NCBI GenBank assembly: GCA_951812955.1
Contig: OX638340.1
Coordinates: 3,008,001-3,072,000 of the forward strand
DNA length: 64,000 bases
Direction: 5' to 3'
Origin: an uncultured Gemmatimonadota bacterium
GTDB taxonomy: Bacteria > JAAXHH01
The stretch's first letter is position 1. Every line of letters starts with the position of its first letter. Shown in pieces: positions 281 through 63,688 of this stretch. The notes below the pieces were generated by a model that ran no database searches, was not told the origin of the DNA, and saw nothing but the letters and a program-made list of their open reading frames with translations. The translations under genes and the position numbers were made by a program.

Positions 281-391
281 GGTTATCGCGGTGAGAACGC
301 GGTCCGGCGTGGTAACCATGCGCATTGGTCCGGCGCGGTAACGGCACGCATTGGTCCGGCGCGGAAACCATACGCATTGGCTCCGGCGGTC
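281..391. repeat. About 3.5 tandem copies of a 26-bp unit (ggtccggcg[t/c]gg[t/a]aac...cgcatt) in the convergent intergenic space
   Basis: Units at 301-326, 327-352 and 353-378 with a partial unit at 379-391, plus a degenerate copy at 281-300. They lie between the stop of the left-edge membrane ORF (221) and the stop of the minus-strand aminotransferase (392-394). Confidence 0.7.
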
Positions 392-1777
392 TTACACGGC
401 CGCAGGCGCCACCCGCGCGGTACGTTCCTCTGCGATCCGGAGTCCGGCCTCGATGATTTCCAGGGATTCGTCGATCTGGGCTTCGGTAATGGTGATCGGC
501 GGCATGAATCGCAGTACCTGGGAACCCGACAGTTCCATGAAGCGCAGGCTCAACGGATCCTTATTCTGCATCCTGGGCACGATGGGCAGCCAGAGTCCGT
601 TTTCGTAGCAGTACTCCGTCACCATGGCGGCCCCTTCGAAATTGGGCGTCCTACTCCGCTTGTCCGTCACCAGTTCGAGGCCGAGGCAGAGACCGAGCCC
701 CCGGGCTTCACCCACGATTTCGAGTTCATCTTCCAGCACCTTGAGCCGGTCCATGAAGTAGTTCCCCACGACCCGGGCGTTTTCCACCAGGTTTTCCCGG
801 TCGACGATTTCAATATTGGCCAGGCCGGTCTCGCAAAGGAGCGGGTCTCCGGCGTGGGACGAGAAGGGCATGAATCCCTTTGCCACCGCGGCGTCCGCGA
901 TCTCAGCGCTGGTCATGACCGCGCACAGGGGCACGGCGCCACCGAGTCCCTTGGAACAGGTGACGATATCGGGTACGAAATCGAAGTGCTCGAATGCAAA
1001 CCACTTGCCCGTCCGCCCGAAGCAGGTCAGGGCCTCGTCCGCCACCGTCAGGATATCCCGTTCCCGGCAGATTTCCACGATCCGCTGGATCCACTCCTTT
1101 GACGGCACGATCTGTCCCGCCGCGCTCATCAAGGGTTCGAAGAAGAAGGCCGCGGGCCGTCCGGAAGTCGACGAGTCGATCACGTTCTCGGCCGCGTCGG
1201 CGCATCCCAGGTTGCAGCAGGCTTCATCCCGGCAGAACTGGCAGCGGTACTCGTAGGGCGTCGGGATGAACGAGGCGCCCGTGGGCATCGGTCCGTACCC
1301 TTCCCGTAGCATGCCGCCCCGTCCGGTGATGGACGCGCTGCCGTAGGACTGGCCGTGGTAGCCGCGCATGAGGGCGATCACCTCGAACCGGTCCGTGTAT
1401 TTCCGCACTAGGCGCAGCGCCATTTCGTTGGATTCGGATCCCGTGCAGGCGAAGAAGGACTTCTGTAACGGGTCCGGCGCGATCTCGGCCATCTTCTTGG
1501 CCAGCAGCACCTCGGACGGCGCGATGAAGGTCGTTCCCACCTGGATGATCTTGTGGGCCTGATCGCAGAGGGCCTTCACGTATTCCGGGTGGGAATGGCC
1601 CAGGGTTACGCACAGTTGACCCGATTGAAAATCGATGAATCGCCGGCCTTCCACGTCCCACATGTAAAGCCCGTCGCCGCGCTCGGGCACCAGGGGCGCG
1701 GTACGCATCGGATGTCTCAACAGGTACTGGTTGCCGAGTTCAAGCCAGCCCGCATTTGTGGTGGGTAGCGACGCCAT
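392..1777 (-). CDS. Class III (PLP-dependent) aminotransferase, omega-aminotransferase / GSA-aminomutase-like
   Basis: 461 aa. N-terminus resembles class III aminotransferases (..LCVTLGHSHPEYV..). The PLP-lysine context CSKGLGGAVPL is present. It contains an unusual Cys-rich insert YEYRCQFCRDEACCNLGCADAAE. High-GC codon usage. Confidence 0.8.
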   Translation of the reverse strand: MASLPTTNAGWLELGNQYLLRHPMRTAPLVPERGDGLYMWDVEGRRFIDFQSGQLCVTLGHSHPEYVKALCDQAHKIIQVGTTFIAPSEVLLAKKMAEIAPDPLQKSFFACTGSESNEMALRLVRKYTDRFEVIALMRGYHGQSYGSASITGRGGMLREGYGPMPTGASFIPTPYEYRCQFCRDEACCNLGCADAAENVIDSSTSGRPAAFFFEPLMSAAGQIVPSKEWIQRIVEICRERDILTVADEALTCFGRTGKWFAFEHFDFVPDIVTCSKGLGGAVPLCAVMTSAEIADAAVAKGFMPFSSHAGDPLLCETGLANIEIVDRENLVENARVVGNYFMDRLKVLEDELEIVGEARGLGLCLGLELVTDKRSRTPNFEGAAMVTEYCYENGLWLPIVPRMQNKDPLSLRFMELSGSQVLRFMPPITITEAQIDESLEIIEAGLRIAEERTARVAPAAV

Positions 1778-5179: not shown

Positions 5180-5395
5180 TACACCGGTATATACGGATGG
5201 ATACGACGGCCCAAATTACGTCTACCGGAGAAAACGGAAGGCCTTAGATAATGGAAGACCGGTAATTTCGACATCCTGAATTATAACCGCGCGACTCGGG
5301 GAGGGTCAAGAGAATGAACTGCCAGGTAGGGCTCAGTTTGGAATGTTGCGACTGGCTCGTTACAGAACAACGCTCCCTATAATCGTTGAATACAG

Positions 5396-5433
5396 AAAAG
5401 CCCCGCTAACTGCAACGGGGCTTTTCCTTTTTT
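5396..5433. terminator. GC-rich palindromic hairpin with flanking T/A tracts (bidirectional intrinsic-terminator-like; repeat copy Y1)
   Basis: aaaagccccg-ctaactgcaa-cggggctttt followed by cctttttt on the + strand and preceded by ttgaatacagaaa (U-rich when read on the minus strand). It lies ~230 bp 3' of the collagen-like gene stop. Confidence 0.5.
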
Positions 5434-5664
5434 CGGGACCGATCGCCCTTTTCAGTGGCCGAAGCTCCTACTCAGGGCGAACGGGAAGGTGTAACGAAAT
5501 GACCGAGACAAATGCAGGGCGGATACTGAATCGATTGCTTGCCCTGTCGGGATAACTTCCGGGGGTCACTCGATACTTGGTCTGATGGGGTACATGAGAA
5601 GGTACCCCATCTCGCCACAGGAGTCTGTCAGCGCCCTGTCTACGGGACCCGGATTATCCCGATG

Positions 5665-7188
5665 TTAACTATCCAGCGGCGCCGTGATAGCTACCGTGAA
5701 ATGAATGCGCTTGGATACCGCACCATTTACCTTCAGTTCAACGATATAGTTCTTGGACTCTGCCCCGTCCGCGCCAATACCCACTGGGCCATTTGCTATT
5801 GGCGCACTGCTATCATTCGCGATCGGGTCTGAGTCATCGAAATTCTGCGCCGTAACCGTCACAGTAACTACACCGCCTGCTGCCGTTTCTGTGGCAACTA
5901 ACCCAACTGTTTCGGCCTTATTGCCACTGGTGACGGTGACGCCTAATGCGTTTTCATCGAAACCATCGATTCGTGCGTCAGAAATCGCATTATACAGTTC
6001 GACGGTAAACGTGGTGGAAGTGTTTCCGTCCTTCCACGCCGCCGTAGCCTGGTCTCGTTCCCACGTGAAGGTGCGAGTTTCCGGCTCGGTGTAGATTATG
6101 TCACGTGTGATGCTGGAACCGGAAACGCTGATATCGACGGAAGCCGACGAACCTTCGATAGTAGCTGAAATGGTAGCATCGCCACTGCTCTTTCCGGAGA
6201 TTGTTGCCGCGGCCCCGGCGGCCATCACAAACTTACCTGCCATTTCATGGCCTTTGGGGTGTTTATCGGCGCCAACACCAGCAGAGCCCGTATCACTAGC
6301 CCATTCGTAATTACCCATAGCACCCAAATTGGGTACCGCCTTATCGTCAGAATCAAGCGCACTGGCAGTAATCTTTGTGGTTTCACCGATGGCCAACGGG
6401 ATCAGGCTATCCTTGCTGAGCTTGACCTTGGCAACCGCATTGGAAACATTCACCGACAACTCACCGGCAACGAGATGGGTAGGTGACTTGAAGGATACCA
6501 TCGATGGACTGTACCCGTCATCTGCATCATAATTCGATGCAAGAGCAGTAATTACCCCATCTTCAACTGAAATACCCTCCTCTTCCTCGTCGATAGACCA
6601 AACCAGGTCAGCGCCTTCAATTATGCTGCCATCCTGTGTGCGGACTGCAGCTTTCACTGTAGCTTCCTGGCCTACTCTGAGAAGGATGCTCGTGCCGTCT
6701 CCAATTCTTGCCGGAGTAAGTTCTTCCAAAGCACCATACGCTTCGGACGAGTGCTCAAGCACCATAGCAGCAACATGGTCTGCTGCCAAGATACCGAGAA
6801 TCTCTTCCGGGCTTAAACCAGGAGGCAGTGTAGCTGCTTCACCTTGCGGACCCTGCTCACCTTGCGGACCTGCCGGCCCCGTGGCACCATCAGCGCCATC
6901 AGCGCCATCAGCGCCTGCCGGACCTGCCGGCCCCGTGGCACCATCAGCGCCATCAGCGCCATCAGCGCCTGCCGGACCTGCCGGACCCGTGGCACCATCA
7001 GCACCTGCCGGACCTGCCGGACCCGTGGCACCATCAGCACCTGCCGGACCAGTCGAACCCTGCGGGCCTGCCGGACCTGCCGGACCGCCCGGACCGCCCG
7101 GACCGCTCGGACCCGCGGGGCCGGTCTTACCCTCGCATCCCATCAGGGACAAACCGAAGGCCAATACAGCAATTATGAGGTAATGCAT
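5665..7188 (-). CDS. Collagen-like triple-helix-repeat surface lipoprotein with C-terminal Ig-like (Big-type) beta-sandwich domains
   Basis: 507 aa. Signal peptide with lipobox (LSLMGC), then ~33 uninterrupted G-X-Y triplets ([30 protein letters not shown]...), then ~370 aa of Ser/Thr/Val-rich Ig-like repeats. Strong RBS (GGGAGAA) lies 8 nt 5' of the ATG. Confidence 0.8.
6840..7130. repeat. Higher-order (~54-bp) tandem nucleotide repeats encoding the collagen G-X-Y tract
   Basis: Near-perfect reiteration of gcaccatcagcgccatcagcgccatcagcgcctgccggacctgccgg[c/a]cccgtg within the CDS. Confidence 0.8.
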
Positions 7189-7697
7189 TGTGTTCTCCCG
7201 TTTATGGAAACACTACTAATTAGGATTGACGAAAATTACGAAACTTGCCTATATCGCCTCCTTTCCCGCTAATGGATCGGTTGACTTAAATGCATTACAA
7301 GACTGCTAATTACAGACTCCTAGACTGGCGGATTTCAGTCCGCATTTAGATACTTTTCCCCTTAAATATGGTTAAATTGAGCCATCAGGAAGTGGTTGGC
7401 TCTCTTGTCCGGTTGATGCAAACGAGCGCCACACACGGCTGCAATCAGCCACCACACCCTGTACTGGCTGGGAGGTAGGAATCGTGTTACGTCAGGCAGG
7501 ATCAGGTGCGTCAGGTAAGGGAAAACGGGGGTGTTGAGATAGGGCGAAGTTGTTACTATCTATCATATCTACTGCCAAGGTGAATTGGCTTGAGTCTACC
7601 CTGCACGCAGCATATATTGACACGTGAGGCATATATCGACGAGGCTGTTGAGACGCAGGAGAACCGGAGATTTACCTAAGCTTTAGCGAGGTTCGAT

Positions 7698-9272
7698 TTG
7701 CGCAGAATTGGCCTATTCGGCTGGGGCATCGTAGCGCCCCGTTCGCCCAACATGGAAGCCTTTTCCCGAAACCTGGAGCAGTCGGAAAGCTGGCTTGCGC
7801 CTTTCGAAGGGTTCGGCCCCAACAACTTCCTGGTCGGGGAACCCGAATTCGACTTCCGGGACTACCGGGAATGGATCGATGCCCGATTCCCGTCGAACCG
7901 GTACCCCCGCCTGGTCGACAAGATGGACCCCACCACGCTGCATGCAGTCGGAGCCTTCATCCAGGCGTTGGAACAGAATCCGGGACTGGAAGGGGAACTC
8001 AAGGCGCTGGGAACGGCCGCCCACGTGTACATTGGTACTGGTGTGGGCAATATCCCCACGATCAGCCGGATCAGTATGGAGCTGTACCGGGCCCAGCGCG
8101 CGTGGGACCGGTTCTGGGGTTCGGCCGAACGGAATGCCCGGCTTCGCGCGTATCTCACTCGGCATGACGACGAAGACGAGGGCGAAGCCATCCCGCCCCA
8201 TCCTGAAACCACACCTTCCGCGGCGCGAGACCAGGCCGAAGAATCATGGAATGTCTACTGGACGTCCCAGTCTGAAGAGTTGAGGTCATACCTGGAGACG
8301 CTCGCCAGGATCGAGGGGATGAACGTCGAGGGGACCGTCGAATCAGGCAAGCTGAAACTCATCCGCGAAAAGCAGCGCCGCAAGCAACAACTGCAGGACG
8401 ATTGGGGCGCGCCCGAACCGCCATGGGAATGCGTCTCGGCCGACCTGATCTGGAACATCCATAACACGCCCGCGTCGCAGGTCACCATGATGGGGCAGAT
8501 TCACGGGCTGTCTCTTGCGCCCGTGGCCGCCTGCTCCACCTTCGGCGTGTGCCTTAAACTCGGCATGGACGCCATCCGGCGCGGCGAAGCGAAGGCGGTC
8601 GTCGTCGGCGCCACCGATCCGCCGCCCACGGCCCTGCTGGTGGGCGCCTTCTACCGCGCCCGTGTTTCCGCTGCAGACGGCGCCGTTTCCAAACCCCTGA
8701 CCGGGCTGCGCGGCACCCACGTCTCGGGCGGCTCCGTGCTGTGGATCATCGGGGACTACGAATACATGACGGAGAAGGGGTTCAATCCGATCGGGATGGA
8801 GCCGCTGGCCGTGGGCGTCAGTTCCGACGCCGACCATATCATCACGCCATCGAAGGAAGGACCGCAGATAGCGGTCCACCAGGCTATTGCGGATGCCCGC
8901 GTCTCCCCCGAAGACATCGCCTCGTGGGACCTGCACGCGACGGCGACGCCCGGCGATTTCCTGGAAATGGAGAACCTGCTCGAAATGGTGCCCGGCTCCG
9001 TGACGGTTACCGCGCGGAAAGGCACCTTCGGCCATGGCATGAGCGCCGGAGGAGGGTGGGAACTGACGGCGCAATACCTCGGCTACGAACGGGGCGCGCT
9101 ATATCCCACGCCCCTTTCCCAAGACGAGGTGAATCCGGAAATCGGCGGACTTCACTCCCGGTTCGTCTACGATACATCCTGCCCGCTCCCCGAAGGTATC
9201 GCCGGCAAGCTGTCCATGGGGATCGGCGGCATCAACGCCTGTGTCATTTCCCGGCCGCTTAAAGATGACTGA
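7698..9272 (+). CDS. Beta-ketoacyl synthase (thiolase-fold condensing enzyme)-like protein with a large internal insertion; stand-alone
   Basis: 524 aa. KAS-I/II-like N-terminus (RRIGLFGWGIVAPRSPNMEAF). Active-site Cys context AACSTFG. Both catalytic His contexts are present (HATATPGDFLE, GHGMSAGGGWE), as is the C-terminal GIGGINACVI. A ~110-aa insertion (residues ~130-240) is not found in FabB/FabF. TTG start with GAGGT SD. No ACP, AT or KR genes nearby. Confidence 0.65.
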   Translation: MRRIGLFGWGIVAPRSPNMEAFSRNLEQSESWLAPFEGFGPNNFLVGEPEFDFRDYREWIDARFPSNRYPRLVDKMDPTTLHAVGAFIQALEQNPGLEGELKALGTAAHVYIGTGVGNIPTISRISMELYRAQRAWDRFWGSAERNARLRAYLTRHDDEDEGEAIPPHPETTPSAARDQAEESWNVYWTSQSEELRSYLETLARIEGMNVEGTVESGKLKLIREKQRRKQQLQDDWGAPEPPWECVSADLIWNIHNTPASQVTMMGQIHGLSLAPVAACSTFGVCLKLGMDAIRRGEAKAVVVGATDPPPTALLVGAFYRARVSAADGAVSKPLTGLRGTHVSGGSVLWIIGDYEYMTEKGFNPIGMEPLAVGVSSDADHIITPSKEGPQIAVHQAIADARVSPEDIASWDLHATATPGDFLEMENLLEMVPGSVTVTARKGTFGHGMSAGGGWELTAQYLGYERGALYPTPLSQDEVNPEIGGLHSRFVYDTSCPLPEGIAGKLSMGIGGINACVISRPLKDD

Positions 9273-9554
9273 CGGACGGAAATCCCTCCTGTCTTAGCTG
9301 AGATAACAAGGGCTCCCGGTTTGTCGGACGTGGGCAGGGCTCGATTTACGGGTTTTCCACCTGGTCGATGCAACTCTTTATGCCTTTATCCACGACAAGC
9401 TGGTGGCAACGCAATGGCGCCGTCTTTACCGCGCCAATAGCCCTCTTCGCACTAATGACTTATTTGCATGTTTCCATGATTTAACACTGCCAGCCCGTTC
9501 CGGAAACTGCCTCCGGCAGATCAGACGAAGTAAGGAAACAGCAGGAATAGTATA

Positions 9555-9642
9555 GTGTTCTCCGTTTATGGGCACTAACGCTTTCCTGACCAACTGATTA
9601 ATCCTTGAATACAGAATAGCCCCGTGGTCACCACGGGGCTAT
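9555..9642. repeat. Composite repeat: second copy of the collagen-gene leader motif (X2) followed 26 bp later by a second copy of the terminator-like palindrome motif (Y2)
   Basis: X2 gtgttctccgtttatgg (9555-9571) matches 7190-7207 in 17 of 18 positions. Y2 ttaatccttgaatacagaatagccccg...cggggctat (9598-9642) matches taatcgttgaatacagaaaagccccg...cggggctttt at 5380-5425. X2 is followed by no start codon or ORF. Confidence 0.75.
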
Positions 9643-10232
9643 TCACTTTCAATATGATTATGCTGAGCATCAGGTATGAGAAAGTTTGAAAATTGAACCA
9701 ATTACCAGACAGTTTGTGATTTGATGTTGACGTTGGATCAATTACTAAATAACATGGATGTGTATTTTACGTGATCGTACTTTTGTAAGAGAATTAAAAT
9801 AAAGTATAATACGAATAATGATGAAAAAATATAAGTTTTTTCTTGACTTATTACTCAACGTAACCATATATATACGGATAAATATCACAAAAAAATCATT
9901 TTTTGTCACGATATGGTTGACTTGGCCCTGCAACCAAGCGTACCTTACAATCTAAAGATTCAACAGAAGATAATAAGGAAGCCGTCATGACGGGTTAACA
10001 TGCCCTAAATTCAACCGCGAGCACACAGTCGATCCCGTTGTAGGGGACGCAGCCCAAACCCCCGGGCAACGGTATTCGATCCTGCAGACTACGCCGTCCG
10101 AAATGCGTTAAACCGTCTCATTCATCACACAGGAACATCGAGGCAGGAGTTAGCGGCTTAATTTTCTGCCTATCTCACCCTGAAGAACACGATATATCGA
10201 TCTCGCCCATGAGAGCGTGATGAGCCTCTTGC

Positions 10233-11192
10233 GTGGAGATAGTACCGGGTACCATGCAGCTACGCATTTCCTTACAGTCTCCCCTCGACAGCAAGGCCGA
10301 TCCGTTGTCCATTGATGTCGCGCGCTTGCTGCATGCCAGCATTGCGCCGAACACGGCGAAGGCGTACGGCGATGCATTGCGCAAGTTGTTCGAGCATCTG
10401 GATGGGCAGACACTGACCGACGCTGCGCTGGCCGGTTACCTGGCGCACTTGTATGCCAAAGGACTGGCGCCGGCTTCGGTCACGGTAGTGGTACAGGCCG
10501 TCCGTTTCTGGGAAAAGCTGGAAAACCGCCCGTCCAGTGTCGAGTCGTTGACGAGTCGAACACTGGCCGGAATCCGACGCGAAGGTCGAAACCGGGGCCG
10601 CGGCCAGGTAACCGGGCTGACCCGAGAAACGGTCAATCTCATGGTTCAGAACGCCATCAATACCGACACACTGGCCGGACTGAGAGACGCCGCTCTGTTT
10701 CGTGTAATGAGCGATGCCCTGTTGCGGATTGGGGAAGCCGTCGCCATCGACTGTGAGCACATCACCACCGAGTTCGACGGGAGCGGGCGGCTGATGTTGC
10801 TTCGAAGCAAGACCGACCAGGAGGGAAAGGGTACCAGTCTCTTCCTGACCAACCGTACCGTCGACGCGATCCGGCAATTGCAGCATGGAGCGGGGTTCAC
10901 CACCGGCCCCCTCTTCCGCCGGATGGTGAAGGGCGACCGAATGTGCGACGGCCGTCTGACGGTGGACGGCGCCCGGCTGACTATCAAAGCGTCTGCGGAG
11001 CGGGTCGGTATCAAGGGCGTGAGCGGCCACAGTCTTCGCATCGGAACCGCCCAGGAACTCGCGCAGCGCGGCGCATCCCTGGTGGAATTGCAGAACGCCG
11101 GCCGATGGACCGACAGCCAGATGCCCGCGCACTACACCCGTGAGCAGGCCGCGGGCAAGGGTGCCGTCGCCCGCTTGCTGGGGATTGACTGA
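10233..11192 (+). CDS. Cre-like tyrosine site-specific recombinase (phage-integrase family)
   Basis: 319 aa. The C-terminus aligns well with P1 Cre (GHSLRIGTAQELAQRGASLVELQNAGRWTDSQMPAHYTRE...ARLLGID versus Cre GHSARVGAARDMARAGVSIPEIMQAGGWTNVNIVMNYIRN...VRLLEDGD). This includes the catalytic H-x-x-R, W and Y. The N-terminal SAM-like domain is also Cre-like (YLAHLYAKGLAPASV). GTG (10233) or ATG (10254) start. A 550-bp AT-rich tract lies upstream. Confidence 0.8.
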   Translation: MEIVPGTMQLRISLQSPLDSKADPLSIDVARLLHASIAPNTAKAYGDALRKLFEHLDGQTLTDAALAGYLAHLYAKGLAPASVTVVVQAVRFWEKLENRPSSVESLTSRTLAGIRREGRNRGRGQVTGLTRETVNLMVQNAINTDTLAGLRDAALFRVMSDALLRIGEAVAIDCEHITTEFDGSGRLMLLRSKTDQEGKGTSLFLTNRTVDAIRQLQHGAGFTTGPLFRRMVKGDRMCDGRLTVDGARLTIKASAERVGIKGVSGHSLRIGTAQELAQRGASLVELQNAGRWTDSQMPAHYTREQAAGKGAVARLLGID

Positions 11193-11200
11193 GGGGAGAC

Positions 11201-11280
11201 TGAGTCGTGAGTCTCTACGGTGAGTCGTGAGTCTCTACGGTGAGACGCGGGTCTCTACGGTGCGTCGTGGAACGCTACGG
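11201..11280. repeat. Four tandem 20-bp units (tgagtcgtgagtctctacgg x2, tgagacgcgggtctctacgg, tgcgtcgtggaacgctacgg) immediately 3' of the recombinase gene
   Basis: Direct reading. Unit 3 contains the 5-bp inverted repeat gagac-gcgg-gtctc. The repeats lie between the convergent stops of the recombinase (11192) and the thioredoxin-domain gene (11303). Confidence 0.8.
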
Positions 11281-11302
11281 AGGAGACGTCACGCGTGCGA
11301 TA

Positions 11303-45777: not shown

Positions 45778-45797
45778 TGCGGCCTCCTTCTCCCCTG

Positions 45798-46988
45798 TTA
45801 CTCGATGACTTCGATGACGACGCCCGCGCCGACGGTTCTTCCGCCCTCACGAATGGCGAAGCGGAGTTCCCTGTCCATGGCGATGGGCTGCATGAGATTG
45901 ACTTCCATGTCGACGTTGTCCCCTGGCATGACCATTTCCACGCCTGCGGGCAGCGAGACCGACCCGGTCACGTCCGTGGTACGGAAGTAGAACTGGGGCC
46001 TGTAGTTGTTGAAGAAGGGCGTATGCCTTCCGCCTTCCTCCTGCTTGAGGACGTAGACCTGGGCCTTGAACCTGGTATGGGGCGTGATGGACCCGGGCTT
46101 GGCGACGACCTGTCCGCGTTCGAGGTCTTCCTTGTCCACTCCGCGCAGGAGCAGTCCGACGTTGTCGCCCGCCCTGGCGTCGTCGAGGAACTTGCGGAAC
46201 ATCTCGATGTCTGTGACGACGGTCTTGCGTGTGTCCTTGATGCCGATGATCTCGACCTCGTCGTTCTTGTTGATGACGCCGCTCTCTACGCGTCCAGTAC
46301 CGACGGTACCCCTACCCGTAATGGAGAAGACGTCCTCCACGGGCATGAGGAAGGGCCGGTCCTCGTCTCTGACCGGGGTGGGGATATATTCGTCCACGGT
46401 TTCCATGAGCTCGGCGATGGGCGCGGCGGCGTCGGATCCTGCCTCGCCTTCCATGGCCAGCAGGGCGCTCCCCCTGATCACGGGGATGTCGTCACCGGGG
46501 AAATCGTAGGAGGAGAGCAACTCTCTGACCTCGAGCTCGACGAGTTCGAGGAGCTCCTCGTCGTCGACCTGGTCGCACTTGTTCAGGAAGACGACGATGG
46601 CGGGCACGTTGACCTGCCTGGCCAGTAGGATGTGCTCGCGCGTCTGGGGCATGGGCCCGTCGGCGGCGGAGACCACCAGGATGGCGCCGTCCATCTGGGC
46701 CGCTCCGGTGATCATGTTCTTGATGTAATCGGCGTGTCCGGGACAATCCACGTGGGCGTAGTGCCGGTTGGTGGTCTCGTATTCGGCGTGGTGCACGTTG
46801 ATGGTGACGCCGCGCTCCTTCTCCTCGGGGGCGTTGTCGATCTGGTCGTAATCCTGAAACTCGGCCAGACCCTGATCCGCCAGCACCTTGGTGATGGCCG
46901 CCGTCAACGTCGTCTTGCCGTGGTCCACGTGACCGATCGTGCCGATGTTCACGTGGGTCTTGGTACGCTCGAATCTTTCCTTCGACAT
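45798..46988 (-). CDS. tuf: Elongation factor Tu (copy 1, downstream of fusA)
   Basis: 396 aa. G1 motif GHVDHGKTT, plus DCPGHADY and NKCD. It differs from copy 2 at one residue (E versus S in ..VDKE[D/S]LERGQ..). Confidence 0.97.
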
Positions 46989-47015
46989 GCTACAGATCCT
47001 CCAGATAATGAACCG

Positions 47016-61755: not shown

Positions 61756-61853
61756 GATTCTGTGCGTCTTCTATGTCAGATTCATCCGGTCTAACCGGGT
61801 GAGGATCGCTTCGATCGCTTCGTCCCGTTTCTTGAATGTCGTCACCAGTCCTG

Positions 61854-63044
61854 TTACTCGATGACTTCGATGACGACGCCCGCGCCGACGGTTCTTCCGC
61901 CCTCACGAATGGCGAAGCGGAGTTCCCTGTCCATGGCGATGGGCTGCATGAGATTGACTTCCATGTCGACGTTATCCCCTGGCATGACCATTTCCACGCC
62001 TGCGGGCAGCGAGACCGACCCGGTCACGTCCGTGGTACGGAAGTAGAACTGGGGCCTGTAGTTGTTGAAGAAGGGCGTATGCCTTCCGCCTTCCTCCTGC
62101 TTGAGGACGTAGACCTGCGCCTTGAACCTGGTATGGGGCGTGATGGACCCGGGCTTGGCGACGACCTGGCCCCGCTCCAGGGATTCCTTGTCCACGCCGC
62201 GCAGGAGCAGTCCGACGTTGTCGCCCGCCCTGGCGTCGTCGAGGAACTTGCGGAACATCTCGATGTCTGTGACGACGGTCTTGCGTGTGTCCTTGATGCC
62301 GATGATCTCGACCTCGTCGTTCTTGTTGATGACGCCGCTCTCTACGCGTCCAGTACCGACGGTACCCCTACCCGTAATGGAGAAGACGTCCTCCACGGGC
62401 ATGAGGAAGGGCCGGTCCTCGTCTCTGACCGGGGTGGGGATGTATTCGTCCACGGTTTCCATGAGTTCGGCGATGGGCGCGGCGGCGTCGGATCCTGCCT
62501 CGCCTTCCATGGCCAGCAGGGCGCTTCCCCTGATCACGGGGATGTCGTCACCGGGGAAATCGTAGGAGGAGAGCAGCTCCCTGACCTCGAGCTCGACGAG
62601 TTCGAGGAGCTCCTCGTCGTCGACCTGGTCGCACTTGTTCAGGAAGACGACGATGGCGGGCACATTGACCTGCCTGGCCAGTAGGATGTGCTCGCGCGTC
62701 TGGGGCATGGGCCCGTCGGCGGCGGAGACCACCAGGATGGCGCCGTCCATCTGGGCCGCTCCGGTGATCATGTTCTTGATGTAATCGGCGTGTCCGGGAC
62801 AATCCACGTGGGCGTAGTGCCGGTTGGTGGTCTCGTATTCGGCGTGGTGCACGTTGATGGTGACGCCGCGCTCCTTCTCCTCGGGGGCGTTGTCGATCTG
62901 GTCGTAATCCTGAAACTCGGCCAGACCCTGATCCGCAAGCACCTTGGTGATGGCCGCCGTCAACGTCGTCTTGCCGTGGTCCACGTGACCGATCGTGCCG
63001 ATGTTCACGTGGGTCTTGGTACGCTCGAATCTTTCCTTCGACAT
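61854..63044 (-). CDS. tuf: Elongation factor Tu (copy 2, tufB-like, downstream of the tRNA cluster)
   Basis: 396 aa, 395/396 identical to copy 1. The nucleotide identity is ~99% and it ends exactly at the start codon and ~8 nt past the stop. Confidence 0.97.
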
Positions 63045-63108
63045 GAAGACAATCTCCTGGAACCAGTTTGGTTTAACGAAACAATACGCCTGATAAAGTC
63101 TGAGCCAA

Positions 63109-63181
63109 AGCCCTCGGCCGGACTTGAACCGGCGACCTACACCTTACCATGGTGTTGCTCTACCAACTGAGCTACAAGGGC
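63109..63181 (-). tRNA. tRNA-Thr (anticodon GGT)
   Basis: Hand-folded from GCCCTTGTAGCTCAGTTGGTAGAGCAACACCATGGTAAGGTGTAGGTCGCCGGTTCAAGTCCGGCCGAGGGCT. 7-bp acceptor stem, anticodon loop aTGGTaa, T-loop GGTTCAAGTCC. Confidence 0.8.
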
Positions 63182-63266
63182 GCTTTCGTTCAAGGTTCAG
63201 ATTAATGCTTACATTATAGCTGGCCGAAACCTTCAGTTTTCCGAACCCGGTCACAGCACTTTATAG

Positions 63267-63340
63267 AGCGGGAAACGGGACTCGAACCCGCGACCCTCAG
63301 CTTGGAAGGCTGATGCTCTAGCCAACTGAGCTATTCCCGC
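63267..63340 (-). tRNA. tRNA-Gly (anticodon TCC)
   Basis: GCGGGAATAGCTCAGTTGGCTAGAGCATCAGCCTTCCAAGCTGAGGGTCGCGGGTTCGAGTCCCGTTTCCCGCT. Anticodon loop cTTCCaa. Confidence 0.8.
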
Positions 63341-63403
63341 CGGTTGTCATTCTGAAGCTGCCTGTTGGCCTGATCTACCCGCCGGCCCTCTTTCAGATAC
63401 GCA

Positions 63404-63485
63404 TGGGGAGGGCAGGATTCGAACCTGCGAAGGCTGAGCCAACGGATTTACAGTCCGTCCCATTTGACCGCTCTGGAACCTCCCC
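63404..63485 (-). tRNA. tRNA-Tyr (anticodon GTA, long variable arm)
   Basis: GGGGAGGTTCCAGAGCGGTCAAATGGGACGGACTGTAAATCCGTTGGCTCAGCCTTCGCAGGTTCGAATCCTGCCCTCCCCA. Anticodon loop cTGTAaa and a class II variable arm. Confidence 0.8.
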
Positions 63486-63497
63486 TGGCTACCTGAA

Positions 63498-63570
63498 AGC
63501 CACCACTCGGATTCGAACCGAGAACCTACTGATTACAAATCAGCCGCTCTGCCATTGGAGCTATGGTGGC
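63498..63570 (-). tRNA. tRNA-Thr (anticodon TGT)
   Basis: GCCACCATAGCTCCAATGGCAGAGCGGCTGATTTGTAATCAGTAGGTTCTCGGTTCGAATCCGAGTGGTGGCT. Anticodon loop tTTGTaa. Confidence 0.8.
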
Positions 63571-63624
63571 CAATATAATCAGTACGAATCCGCATCTTGA
63601 GCAGCTCAAGAACACAGACAGGGA

Positions 63625-63653
63625 AATATAATCAACATCACTGCCATTGTCAA
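63625..63653 (-). promoter_or_regulatory. Strong sigma70-type promoter for the tRNA-Thr/Tyr/Gly/Thr-tuf operon (TTGACA-17 bp-TATATT) with an AT-rich UP-like element
   Basis: On the minus strand: TTGACAatggcagtgatgttgatTATATT, preceded by cttcagtttattttgcat. It lies ~45 nt upstream of the first tRNA. A 7-bp palindrome cttgagc-a-gctcaag (63597-63611) sits in the leader. Confidence 0.5.
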
Positions 63654-63688
63654 GGATGTATGCAAAATAAACTGAAGCCGTGATTGGA

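What the first reader, a model, noticed from the sequence alone, without database searches (positions are those of the whole stretch)
9650..11300. Cre-like tyrosine recombinase flanked by an AT-rich leader and a 4x20-bp tandem repeat, with no obvious lox-like site or integrated element
The 319-aa recombinase aligns with P1 Cre across both domains, including the catalytic triad context and the C-terminal LL(E/G)xD. It is not integron-IntI-like and not XerCD-like. It is preceded by ~550 bp of very AT-rich, ORF-free DNA (9650-10230; about 25% GC at 9745-9935). That tract contains -35/-10-like hexamers and a 12-bp palindrome ccgtcatgacgg. The gene ends 9 bp before four tandem 20-bp units, one of which carries gagac-gcgg-gtctc. 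Cre-family enzymes act on sites with ~13-bp inverted arms and a 6-8-bp spacer. I could not identify such a site by eye, so the substrate is unknown. Candidates are the X/Y repeats 0.6 kb away, the tandem 20-mers, or sites elsewhere. The position is consistent with the edge of an integrated or invertible region.
Basis: partly seen in the sequence, partly recalled or inferred. Interest (0 to 1): 0.6.

Follow-up and report, generated by a model that had tools for sequence, protein, structure and literature searches.

The report
Promoter-moving inversion switch for surface lipoproteins
The Cre-like recombinase sits beside a DNA inversion switch that can move a single promoter piece between its own leader and silent collagen-like surface lipoprotein genes, a mycoplasma-style antigen-switching system that our searches did not find described for these uncultured sponge/coral-associated bacteria.

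Summary
A 312-aa tyrosine recombinase (REC, 10254-11192) has Cre as its best sequence and structure match. The lowest-GC tract of the window lies upstream, and a 20-bp tandem array lies downstream.

The tandem array is a non-conserved VNTR (0/2/3/4 copies in relatives). The 12-bp palindrome is not conserved either. The substrate lies inside the AT-rich leader.

A 19-bp site (9854-9872, +) has one inverted partner (7363-7381, -), about 170 nt upstream of a collagen-like lipoprotein gene (5665-7188, -). Left of the REC-proximal site is a unique, near-invariant TTGACT -35 module.

In 14 syntenic relatives the same sites flank 1 to at least 4 paralogous lipoprotein cassettes. In four relatives the DNA between two sites is inverted, about 0.4 kb or 9 kb, placing the -35 module in front of a cassette. 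Contigs encoding an identical REC protein join the REC side to two different partners.

A 96%-identical strain differs from the window by one base in each crossover core. These are 2 of only 3 differences across about 3 kb.

Best reading: a REC-driven, multi-gene promoter-docking inversion system like Mycoplasma vpma/vsa, here with the crossover inside the promoter. It is a new variant of a known kind.

The parts
10254..11192 (+). REC: 312-aa Cre-like tyrosine recombinase, the presumed invertase. An alternative GTG start lies at 10233.
   Evidence: Catalytic residues R158, K186, H259, R262, W285, Y294.
9854..9872 (+). REC-proximal recombination site S0 (CTCAACGTAACCATATATA), here in the 'P.R' configuration. 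The inferred strand-exchange core CCATAT is at 9864-9869.
   Evidence: Only two matches in the window, inverted relative to each other, with 0 expected by chance. The same site lies about 375-400 nt upstream of REC in every syntenic relative that has upstream sequence.
9836..9858 (+). P module: TTTTTTCTTGACTTATTACTCAA, with -35 TTGACT at 9843-9848 and an A/T-rich stretch upstream. It occurs once per locus and is the mobile part of the promoter. 18 nt downstream is TATATA (9867-9872).
   Evidence: Near-invariant across relatives. Found joined either to the REC flank (R) or to a lipoprotein 5'UTR flank (G). The organism uses canonical sigma-70-type promoters, for example TTGACA-N17-TATATT before the tRNA operon.
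7363..7381 (-). Partner site S1 (CTCAATTTAACCATATTTA) in the 'X.G' configuration, followed by the conserved 5'UTR start AAGGGGAAAAGT. Core CCATAT is at 7371-7366.
   Evidence: (I1). The core base differs from strain L042 at the same position as in S0.
7372..9863 (.). Predicted invertible segment of about 2.5 kb between the two cores. It carries the KS-like gene, a terminator-like hairpin and the P module.
   Evidence: Inferred from the inverted orientation of S0 and S1 and from inversions seen between homologous sites in relatives.
5665..7188 (-). Cassette gene: a 507-aa predicted lipoprotein ([18 protein letters not shown]...) with collagen G-X-Y repeats and a variable Ig-like C-terminal part. 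It is currently without the -35 module.
   Evidence: Pfam Collagen hit, E 2.6e-12. In paralogs the first 29 aa are nearly invariant and the rest is 30-44% identical. Big_2/Ig_Eae are weak hits in orthologs.
7189..7362 (-). Conserved 5'UTR of the cassette gene, about 170 nt from the site to the ATG.
5381..5667 (.). Cassette 3' 'A element' with a bidirectional terminator-like hairpin (about 5397-5428).
   Evidence: 91% identical to copies behind cassettes in L003. Sequence shown.
7698..9272 (+). Stand-alone beta-ketoacyl-synthase-like gene embedded among the cassettes. In this window it lies inside the invertible segment.
   Evidence: Pfam ketoacyl-synt N and C domains. 90-94% conserved and always flanked by cassettes in relatives.
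9614..9644 (.). Perfect 15-bp-stem hairpin. Its 5' flank matches the start of the A element. Likely a terminator remnant of a lost cassette.
   Evidence: I25; 5380-5405 matches 9599-9624; z -6.6.
9918..9947 (+). Conserved promoter-like block TTGACT-N18-TACCTT downstream of the switch. Probably REC's own promoter.
   Evidence: GTTGAC and CGTAC..TA are invariant columns in 15 loci. The scan tool reports an overlapping hit at 9922-9951.
9873..10253 (+). REC leader, conserved in blocks, with no supported RNA structure.
   Evidence: covariation term -0.41.
11201..11280 (.). Array of four 20-bp units between the convergent REC and 705-aa genes. A VNTR, not part of the switch.

Best explanation
REC is a Cre-like tyrosine recombinase that acts as a site-specific invertase on short sites. 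These share about 16-19 bp (CTCRRnnTAWYCATATWTA).

Layout. One site (S0) lies about 390 bp upstream of REC. The others lie about 170-195 nt upstream of each member of a family of promoter-less, collagen-like surface lipoprotein genes, in inverted orientation relative to S0. Immediately left of S0 is the only copy of a -35/UP-like promoter module (P).

Exchange. Strand exchange occurs inside the 6-bp core (T/C)CATAT. This core lies between the -35 and the -10-like hexamer.

Consequence. Inversion between S0 and a cassette site carries P away from the REC leader and docks it 18 nt from that cassette's own -10-like TATTTA, switching that gene on. All DNA in between, including other cassettes, is flipped.

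State of the window. The switch is in the 'parked' P.R state. The single cassette (5665-7188) lacks P. Inverting about 7372-9863 would activate it.

Shown: the sites, their orientation, the inversions between relatives, partner swapping within one species, and the coupled change of the two cores.

Inferred: that REC is the catalyst, that P is the promoter, and that the biological role is surface variation.
For: 1. Exactly two site copies occur in the 64 kb, inverted, with 0 expected by chance.

2. In 14 syntenic relatives the 3' side of REC is invariant. The 5' side holds 1 to at least 4 tandem cassettes of about 2 kb. Each ends in the same site on the strand opposite to S0.

3. There are four flank types (P, R, X, G) and two states. 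P.R + X.G occurs in the window, L002, L003, L006, L009, L010, L011, L012, L017, L021 and L042. P.G + X.R occurs in L004, L005, L008 and L018.

4. L004 and L008 differ from L010 by inversion of 9221-9619, exactly between the two sites.

5. L018 differs from L012 by a 9-kb inversion. Three cassettes and their sites are now on the + strand, and P faces a fourth cassette.

6. L020 is an independent metagenome contig with P.G followed by a lipoprotein start.

7. Five assemblies encode the identical REC protein P0002. L023 and L025/L026 are identical to the right of TCTATTCATAT. They carry two different X flanks to its left. Two other contigs end about 45 nt from the site.

8. The flank-linked polymorphisms TCTA[A/T]T and CATAT[A/T] stay with their own flanks in both states. 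This confines the exchange to about TCATAT.

9. Strain L042 has only 3 differences from the window across 7189-10253. Two of them are the same T/C position in the two cores.

10. REC has a complete catalytic set and a Cre-like fold. It is the only recombinase at the locus.

11. P is near-invariant and carries TTGACT. The organism's tRNA promoter is TTGACA-N17-TATATT.

12. The cassette proteins share an invariant signal peptide and lipobox and diverge afterwards, as antigenic-variation families do.
Against: - No experiment or read-level data links REC to the inversions. Adjacency is circumstantial.
- Most assemblies (11 of 15) are in the P.R state, in which no cassette would have P. A strictly one-gene-on system would not predict this. 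Cassettes may also have other, unrecognised promoters.
- The -10-like hexamers (TATATA, TATTTA or CATATT) are imperfect.
- The right arms of the R and G flanks are dissimilar, and dyad symmetry is weak in the window's own S0 (6/12). The binding mode is therefore unclear.
- L013 (REC 82% identical, same downstream synteny) has no cassettes or P within 10 kb.
- The 78-81% orthologs sit in unrelated contexts. REC-family enzymes therefore need not be tied to this array.
- In the window, inversion would also flip a conserved KS-like gene. No relative shows that gene inverted.
Confidence: 0.72

Rival explanations
1. The rearrangements are real, but a different enzyme catalyses them. This could be another recombinase encoded elsewhere, or RecA-dependent homologous recombination between the conserved cassette 5' regions, as in Campylobacter fetus sap. 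On this reading REC has an unrelated role, such as a Xer-like function or a remnant integrase.
For: There is no direct link between REC and the sites. L013 keeps REC without any nearby cassettes. Close REC orthologs occur in unrelated contexts.
Against: S0 shares only about 16-19 bp with the cassette sites, which is too short for efficient RecA recombination. The breakpoints fall within a 6-bp core, as expected for a tyrosine recombinase. S0 keeps a fixed distance of about 375-400 nt from REC in all array-bearing loci. Xer NCBIfam scores are far below cut-off.
Confidence: 0.12
2. An integron-like platform. REC captures and excises gene cassettes at S0, next to a resident promoter, so the array reflects cassette acquisition rather than phase variation.
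For: The recombinase is adjacent and divergent to a variable-length cassette array. Each cassette carries a site, and a promoter lies next to the recombinase. Cassette number varies from 1 to at least 4.
Against: The cassettes are paralogs with an invariant 5' end, not unrelated genes. The differences observed between genomes are inversions. The cassette sites are inverted relative to S0. REC is Cre-like in fold, and IntI is a weaker match. The NCBIfam integron-integrase/XerA model scores 51 bits against a cut-off of 220.
Confidence: 0.05
3. The apparent inversions are assembly artefacts at repeated cassette ends, and the locus is static.
For: The cassettes share 300-400-nt 5' and 3' repeats that can confuse assemblers. 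Several short-read contigs break near the site.
Against: Inverted states occur in chromosome-scale or multi-Mb contigs: L018 from OZ241920.1 (3.9 Mb) and L004 from a 3.8-Mb contig. The junctions fall at the 19-bp site, not within the long repeats. Both reciprocal junctions are present in each inverted locus. The coupled core substitution in the window versus L042 does not depend on any assembly choice.
Confidence: 0.04
4. One reading: REC acts on the 20-bp tandem units or on the 12-bp palindrome.
For: Proximity to the gene. One unit contains the inverted repeat gagac-gcgg-gtctc.
Against: The array has 0, 2, 3 or 4 copies in close relatives. It is absent in most, and in L004, L006 and L011 the two genes nearly abut. 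Its folding is unremarkable. The palindrome is not conserved.
Confidence: 0.02

Closest known systems
Mycoplasma agalactiae vpma / M. bovis vsp loci with the Xer1 (Mbr) tyrosine recombinase
   Same: A tyrosine recombinase gene lies next to a cluster of paralogous surface lipoprotein genes. There is one promoter per locus. A short conserved recombination site lies in the 5' untranslated region of every gene. Site-specific inversions bring a silent gene to the promoter, and intervening genes are flipped. Rho-independent terminators separate the genes (PMC2268961, read).
   Different: - The phylum is different: uncultured Gemmatimonadota/Latescibacterota-labelled MAGs.
- The recombinase is Cre-like, with Trp at the Cre W315 position.
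- The crossover lies between -35 and -10, so the promoter itself is split, rather than lying downstream of an intact promoter.
- There is a 'parked' state in which the promoter module faces the recombinase gene and no cassette carries it.
- The cassettes encode collagen-repeat proteins.
- An unrelated KS-like gene is embedded in the array.
- Homology of REC to Xer1 was not tested.
Mycoplasma pulmonis vsa locus with HvsR
   Same: A multi-gene inversion system with a single expression site and an adjacent tyrosine recombinase. HvsR is the member whose role was shown experimentally, as summarised in PMC2268961.
   Different: From general knowledge, the vsa recombination sites lie within the 5' coding region, so the expression site supplies both the promoter and the N-terminus. 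Here the exchange lies upstream of the 5'UTR.
P1 Cre / loxP
   Same: Cre is the best sequence match (24% identity, E 6e-13) and the best structural match. All six catalytic residues are shared, including Trp. The crossover is confined to about 6 bp. The P.R site of most relatives can be written as an imperfect 12-8-12 palindrome: TTACTCAATCTA-ATCATATA-TATACGGAGTAA, with 9 of 12 arm positions symmetric.
   Different: REC is chromosomal and there is no phage context. The arms are imperfect and the cassette sites are asymmetric. The role is programmed inversion among multiple sites, not plasmid dimer resolution or cyclisation.
R64 shufflon (Rci) and other multiple-inversion systems
   Same: One tyrosine recombinase and several sites. 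Any pair of inverted sites can recombine, giving many arrangements. Only one arm of the site is well conserved (general knowledge about sfx sites).
   Different: The shufflon swaps 3' coding segments of one gene (pilV). Here a promoter module is swapped between whole genes.
Single invertible promoters (E. coli fimS/FimB-FimE, Bacteroides invertible promoters, C. difficile RecV switches)
   Same: A promoter orientation switch driven by site-specific recombinases. The recombinase gene lies next to the switch in fim, and switch orientation possibly feeds back on recombinase expression.
   Different: In those systems the whole promoter lies inside one IR-flanked element and controls one operon. 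Here only the -35 side moves, and it can dock at several genes.

Membership tests
Tyrosine recombinase superfamily (Pfam PF00589) | Pfam Phage_integrase hit above the gathering score | tested here: met
   46.7 bits against a cut-off of 27.1, E 4e-12.
Tyrosine recombinase superfamily (Pfam PF00589) | Catalytic R-K-H-R-(H/W)-Y set | tested here: met
   R158, K186, H259, R262, W285 and Y294 align with Cre R173, K201, H289, R292, W315 and Y324. R158, K186, R262, W285 and Y294 are invariant and H259 nearly invariant among 40 homologs.
Cre-like recombinases | Cre is the closest solved relative by sequence and by fold across both domains | tested here: met
   phmmer hits to the PDB: all 17 best are Cre or Cre variants, E about 4e-11. 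Foldseek: ranks 1-32 are Cre or Tre, E about 1e-14, TM 0.60-0.69, with about 305-325 aligned columns.
Cre-like recombinases | lox-type site: two about 13-bp inverted arms around an asymmetric 8-bp spacer (6-bp overlap) | tested here: inconclusive
   The crossover is confined to about 6 bp, (T/C)CATAT. The P.R site of relatives fits 12-8-12 with 9/12 symmetric arm positions, but the window's own S0 has only 6/12 and the cassette sites 4/12 (from the sequences).
Cre-like recombinases | Phage or plasmid context (dimer resolution or cyclisation) | tested here: not met
   Conserved chromosomal synteny. No phage match. Plasmid matches are below 30% identity.
XerC/XerD chromosome dimer resolvases | Score above the NCBIfam equivalog cut-offs | tested here: not met
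   XerD 48.3 against 329.6, XerC 40.0 against 335.15, XerA 51.4 against 220.
XerC/XerD chromosome dimer resolvases | A single dif site near the terminus, with no associated variable DNA | tested here: not met
   Multiple sites flank a variable cassette array next to the gene. The terminus position cannot be tested.
Integron integrase (IntI) | IntI-type protein with attI plus attC-bounded unrelated cassettes | tested here: not met
   IntI (2a3v) is a weaker structural match than Cre, 2.6e-9 against 1e-14. The cassettes are paralogs with an invariant 5' end. attC-like folded sites were not searched for.
Multi-gene promoter-docking inversion systems (vpma/vsp/vsa type) | Tyrosine recombinase gene adjacent to the multigene locus | tested here: met
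   REC lies about 375-400 nt from S0 in all array-bearing loci.
Multi-gene promoter-docking inversion systems (vpma/vsp/vsa type) | Family of paralogous surface lipoprotein genes with conserved 5' ends and variable bodies | tested here: met
   Residues 1-29 are nearly invariant and include the lipobox LMGC. The rest is 30-44% identical.
Multi-gene promoter-docking inversion systems (vpma/vsp/vsa type) | A single promoter element per locus | tested here: met
   There is exactly one P module per locus, and it faces either REC or one cassette. That it functions as a promoter is inferred from sequence only (for the organism's promoter type).
Multi-gene promoter-docking inversion systems (vpma/vsp/vsa type) | A conserved short site upstream of every gene, with inversions occurring between sites | tested here: met
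   Partner swapping with an identical REC protein. Coupled core change.
Multi-gene promoter-docking inversion systems (vpma/vsp/vsa type) | Switching abolished by inactivating the recombinase | not testable with these tools
   Requires genetics or heterologous reconstitution. The organisms are uncultured.
Multi-gene promoter-docking inversion systems (vpma/vsp/vsa type) | Recombinase homologous to Xer1/Mbr/HvsR | not tested
Membership is claimed by architecture, not by descent.

The most novel reading that the evidence does not exclude
This would be a previously undescribed 'split-promoter shufflon'. A domesticated Cre-like recombinase moves only the -35/UP half of a promoter by inversion. The module moves between a parking position in the recombinase's own leader and any of several silent collagen-like lipoprotein genes. 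This would give uncultured sponge/coral symbionts programmed surface variation, for example against host phagocytosis or phages. It would also provide a new Cre-like enzyme and site pair with a defined 6-bp overlap.
Probability: 0.55. Interest if true: 0.72.

Novelty: new variant of a known kind. Interest (0 to 1): 0.62.

Why it matters
Programmed antigenic variation by promoter-docking inversions is best known from mycoplasmas and a few host-associated pathogens. Full-text searches found no report for sponge-associated Latescibacterota or Gemmatimonadota.

Finding the same logic in abundant, uncultured symbionts suggests they face strong selection on their surface from host cells or phages. 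Sample and isolate names point to sponges and corals, but that is an inference. The names are IrcVar, APA_bin, IRC1_bin and Plut.

The variable proteins carry collagen-like repeats and Ig-like domains. These are plausible host-matrix or adhesion modules.

Mechanistically, a crossover placed between -35 and -10, together with a 'parked' state facing the recombinase gene, departs from the known systems we compared.

The enzyme and its short site are well enough defined (19-bp site, 6-bp overlap, natural T/C overlap variants) to be tested directly. They could possibly serve as an orthogonal Cre-like tool.

Tried and rejected
- Tandem 20-mers as the site: rejected. Copy number is 0/2/3/4, the array is absent in most relatives, and folding gives z 0.26.
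- 12-bp palindrome: rejected. It is not conserved, and in some loci it overlaps a 3-codon mini-ORF only.
- Structured RNA in the REC leader: RNAalifold gives almost no covariation, and there is no Rfam hit.
- Integrated element: no tRNA nearby, fixed downstream synteny, no phage hits, and only distant plasmid integrases.
- Exact look-up of the window's REC protein in public assemblies: not on record.
- Metagenome scan with the P-module pattern: a single hit, L020. This was useful but too sparse for a census of states.
- Testing whether more distant REC homologs share the architecture. The 78-81% orthologs (L014-L016, L019, L033-L041) and the 55-59% homologs (L030, which is MGE-like, and L031) are in unrelated contexts. 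No matching sites or rearrangements were seen.
- L013 keeps REC and the downstream synteny but has no cassettes within 10 kb.
- Genome-wide distribution of the sites could not be examined.
Full report
OBSERVATION

- The ORF 10233-11192 encodes a tyrosine recombinase (Pfam Phage_integrase 46.7 bits). About 60 close homologs are 312 aa long, so ATG 10254 is the likely start.
- GC is 27.7% at 9745-9935 against 59.3% for the window. This is the only place in 64 kb where 190-nt windows fall below 30% GC.
- TRF finds a 20-bp tandem array at 11201-11269, and a fourth degenerate unit extends it to 11280.
- The palindrome CCGTCATGACGG is at 9982-9993.

IS IT CRE-LIKE?

Yes.
- All 17 best sequence matches among solved structures are Cre or engineered Cre (E about 4e-11), covering Cre residues 72-339.
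- BLASTP gives 24% identity over 268 aa.
- R158, K186, H259, R262, W285 and Y294 align with the Cre catalytic residues, including the Cre-typical Trp. R158, K186, R262, W285 and Y294 are invariant among 40 homologs and H259 is nearly invariant.
- An AlphaFold model (pLDDT 80.1) has Cre/Tre chains as its Foldseek ranks 1-32 (E about 1e-14, TM 0.60-0.69). These rank ahead of IntI, XerA, XerH, XerD and lambda Int.
- NCBIfam Xer models score 40-51 bits against cut-offs of 220-335.

CONTEXT IN RELATIVES

A genome-collection scan gave 19 loci from MAGs labelled Gemmatimonadetes, Latescibacterota or 'bacterium'.

In 15 of them the genes downstream of REC are the same and in the same order. These are a 705-aa DUF255/thioredoxin-like gene, a GFO/IDH/MocA oxidoreductase, a DDAH/ADI-like gene, LigA and SecDF.

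The upstream side is variable. The distance from a conserved KS-like gene to REC ranges from about 1 kb in the window to about 8.8 kb in L004.

The extra DNA consists of tandem cassettes of about 2 kb, all on the strand opposite to REC. Each encodes a 445-507-aa protein that begins [27 protein letters not shown]. This is a signal peptide with a lipobox. It is followed by collagen G-X-Y repeats of variable length and a divergent Ig-like body.

The window has one such gene, 5665-7188 on the minus strand. Here it lies on the far side of the KS-like gene.

THE TANDEM 20-MERS AND THE PALINDROME ARE NOT THE SUBSTRATE
- The array has 4 units in the window, 3 in L002, 2 in the 96%-identical strain L042 and 0 in L001. 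In L001 GGGGAGAC is joined directly to GTCACGCG.
- In L004, L006 and L011 the two convergent genes nearly abut.
- The array folds no better than shuffled sequence (z 0.26).
- The palindrome is not maintained in L002, L022 or L003.
- The perfect hairpin at 9614-9644 (z -6.6) resembles the terminator hairpin of the cassette 3' element at about 5397-5428. It is probably a remnant of a lost cassette.

THE REAL SITE

The leader from about 9824 to the REC start is conserved at 73-78% in relatives. The segment 9821-9881 also occurs in inverted orientation elsewhere in L004, L005, L008 and L018.

Aligning the junctions shows a shared core, TCTA(A/T)TCATAT. In the window the core reads GTAACCATAT or TTAACCATAT. 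It is bounded by four flank types.
- P: AAGTTTTTTCTTGACTTATTACTCAA. One copy per locus.
- X: GCCGCTTTCTGACGCTCGG.
- R: ATATACGGAGTAAAATCAC. This is the REC side.
- G: TTAAGGGGAAAAGT. This starts the roughly 170-195-nt 5'UTR of every cassette gene.

Loci are in one of two states.
- P.R + X.G: the window, L002, L003, L006, L009, L010, L011, L012, L017, L021 and L042.
- P.G + X.R: L004, L005, L008 and L018.

In the window the pattern CTCAANNTAACCATATWTA matches only 9854-9872 (+) and 7363-7381 (-), with none expected by chance.

INVERSIONS
- L004 and L008 differ from L010 by inversion of 9221-9619, exactly between the two sites.
- L018 is from a 3.9-Mb chromosome assembly. It differs from L012 by a 9-kb inversion. 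P now faces a distal cassette at 644-679 (-).
- In L018, three cassettes and their X.G sites lie on the + strand, and X.R is at 9579-9589. A single S0-by-cassette-site inversion would produce exactly this.
- L020 is an independent metagenome contig. It shows P.G followed 190 nt later by MHYLII....

WITHIN-SPECIES EVIDENCE

Five assemblies from different samples encode the identical REC protein P0002. L023 and L025/L026 are identical from TCTATTCATAT rightwards. To the left they carry two different X flanks. Two further contigs end about 45 nt from the site.

Strain L042 is collinear with the window. It has only three differences across 7189-10253. Two of them are the same T/C position in the two crossover cores: 7371 on the complementary strand, and 9864.

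Such a concerted change is what heteroduplex formation in the overlap region of a tyrosine-recombinase reaction would produce. It is very unlikely by chance.

WHERE THE STRANDS EXCHANGE

The A/T polymorphism in TCTA[A/T]T travels with the P or X flank. The A/T after CATAT travels with the R or G flank, with L008 as a possible exception. The exchange is therefore confined to about the 6 bp (T/C)CATAT. This is the usual size of a tyrosine-recombinase overlap.

In most relatives the P.R site can be written TTACTCAATCTA-ATCATATA-TATACGGAGTAA, with 9 of 12 arm positions symmetric. The window's S0 (6/12) and the cassette sites (4/12) are much less symmetric. A lox-like layout is therefore only suggestive.

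PROMOTER LOGIC (INFERRED)

P contains TTGACT, preceded by an A/T-rich tract. The tRNA operon promoter of this organism is TTGACA-N17-TATATT, so a sigma-70-type reading is reasonable.

Eighteen nucleotides after TTGACT comes TATATA in P.R, or TATTTA in P.G. In P.G the spacing N16 also gives CATATT. The core is thus part of the -10 region, and the crossover separates -35 from -10. X flanks have no -35 at that spacing.

Docking P in front of a cassette should therefore switch it on. Bidirectional terminator hairpins in the cassette 3' elements would insulate neighbouring genes.

A second promoter-like block, TTGACY-N18-TACCTT, lies downstream of S0 and is conserved. It probably gives REC switch-independent expression. 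In the P.R state, read-through from P may raise REC expression. That is speculation.

THE WINDOW ITSELF

The switch is parked in the P.R state, so the single lipoprotein gene lacks P.

The predicted inversion of about 7372-9863 would place TTGACT 18 nt from TATTTA, upstream of 7188. It would also flip the KS-like gene.

No relative shows the KS-like gene inverted. That inversion is therefore predicted, not observed. The coupled core substitution is nevertheless evidence that these two sites have interacted.

COMPARISON WITH KNOWN SYSTEMS

The architecture matches the Mycoplasma agalactiae vpma / M. bovis vsp / M. pulmonis vsa systems (PMC2268961).
- The recombinase gene is adjacent.
- There is a single promoter.
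- Every lipoprotein gene has a site in its 5'UTR.
- Inversions activate silent genes.

It differs in several respects.
- The lineage is different.
- The recombinase is Cre-like.
- The crossover lies inside the promoter.
- There is a parked state.
- The cassette proteins are collagen-like.

It also resembles shufflons in being a multi-site inversion system with asymmetric sites, and it resembles fim-type switches. It is not Xer-like or IntI-like by the tests run.

Full-text searches found no description of this system in sponge-associated Latescibacterota or Gemmatimonadota.

LIMITS
- No read-level or experimental evidence is available.
- REC as the catalyst rests on adjacency, the fixed spacing to S0, and the tyrosine-recombinase-like size of the crossover.
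- Most assemblies are in the P.R state. This is unexplained if one cassette must always be on.
- REC orthologs at 78-82% identity exist without nearby cassettes.
- More distant homologs sit in mobile-element-like contexts. The invertase role may therefore be a lineage-specific domestication.

VERDICT

The locus is best explained as a promoter-docking, multi-gene inversion switch for variable collagen-like lipoproteins. It is a new variant of a known kind. Interest 0.62.

Noticed in passing
window 5250-10250 compared with L042: This 5-kb block covers the lipoprotein cassette, the KS-like gene, the switch and the REC leader. It is almost identical between the window and strain L042. The flanks, including REC itself (94% aa identity), differ by about 4-5%. 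This suggests recent transfer or a sweep of the block.
   Followed up: partly
window 6834-7113: The collagen-repeat region of the lipoprotein gene consists of nested 9/18/36/54-bp tandem repeats. It carries most of the indels relative to L042: 66 differences in 6750-7000. Repeat length is a second layer of variation in these proteins.
   Followed up: partly
window 7698-9272: A stand-alone beta-ketoacyl-synthase-like 524-aa gene is 90-94% conserved and always embedded among the variable cassettes. Why it sits inside an inversion array is unexplained.
   Followed up: no
window 45794-46989 and 61850-63045: A 1.2-kb direct duplication at 98.7% identity, probably two tuf (EF-Tu) copies. The second copy is next to a tRNA-Thr/Gly/Tyr/Thr cluster at 63109-63571.
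   Followed up: no
window 63630-63665 (minus strand): A canonical TTGACA-N17-TATATT promoter lies upstream of the tRNA cluster. This shows the organism uses sigma-70-type promoters.
   Followed up: partly
window 301-388: A 26-bp tandem repeat, 3.3 copies, 83% matches. Not examined.
   Followed up: no
L005 453-465: An extra G-type site in + orientation, with no gene behind it, lies inside the inverted spacer between P.G and X.R. It may be a remnant of an earlier rearrangement.
   Followed up: no
L013 9640-9700: In the cassette-less relative, a core-like TAAATCATATAAG lies directly after REC's own promoter-like block. It is possibly a relic or solitary site.
   Followed up: no
L030 (P0072, 59% identical homolog): A more distant REC homolog sits at the end of a run of small ORFs that includes RadC, HNH and PAPS-reductase-like genes, typical of a mobile element. 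This suggests the invertase clade derives from element integrases.
   Followed up: no
L012 5505-5517: One cassette-type site has an R-like ATAT after the core (TCTATTCATATATATTTAAGGGG). It looks like a hybrid footprint of past exchange or a 2-bp TA expansion.
   Followed up: no
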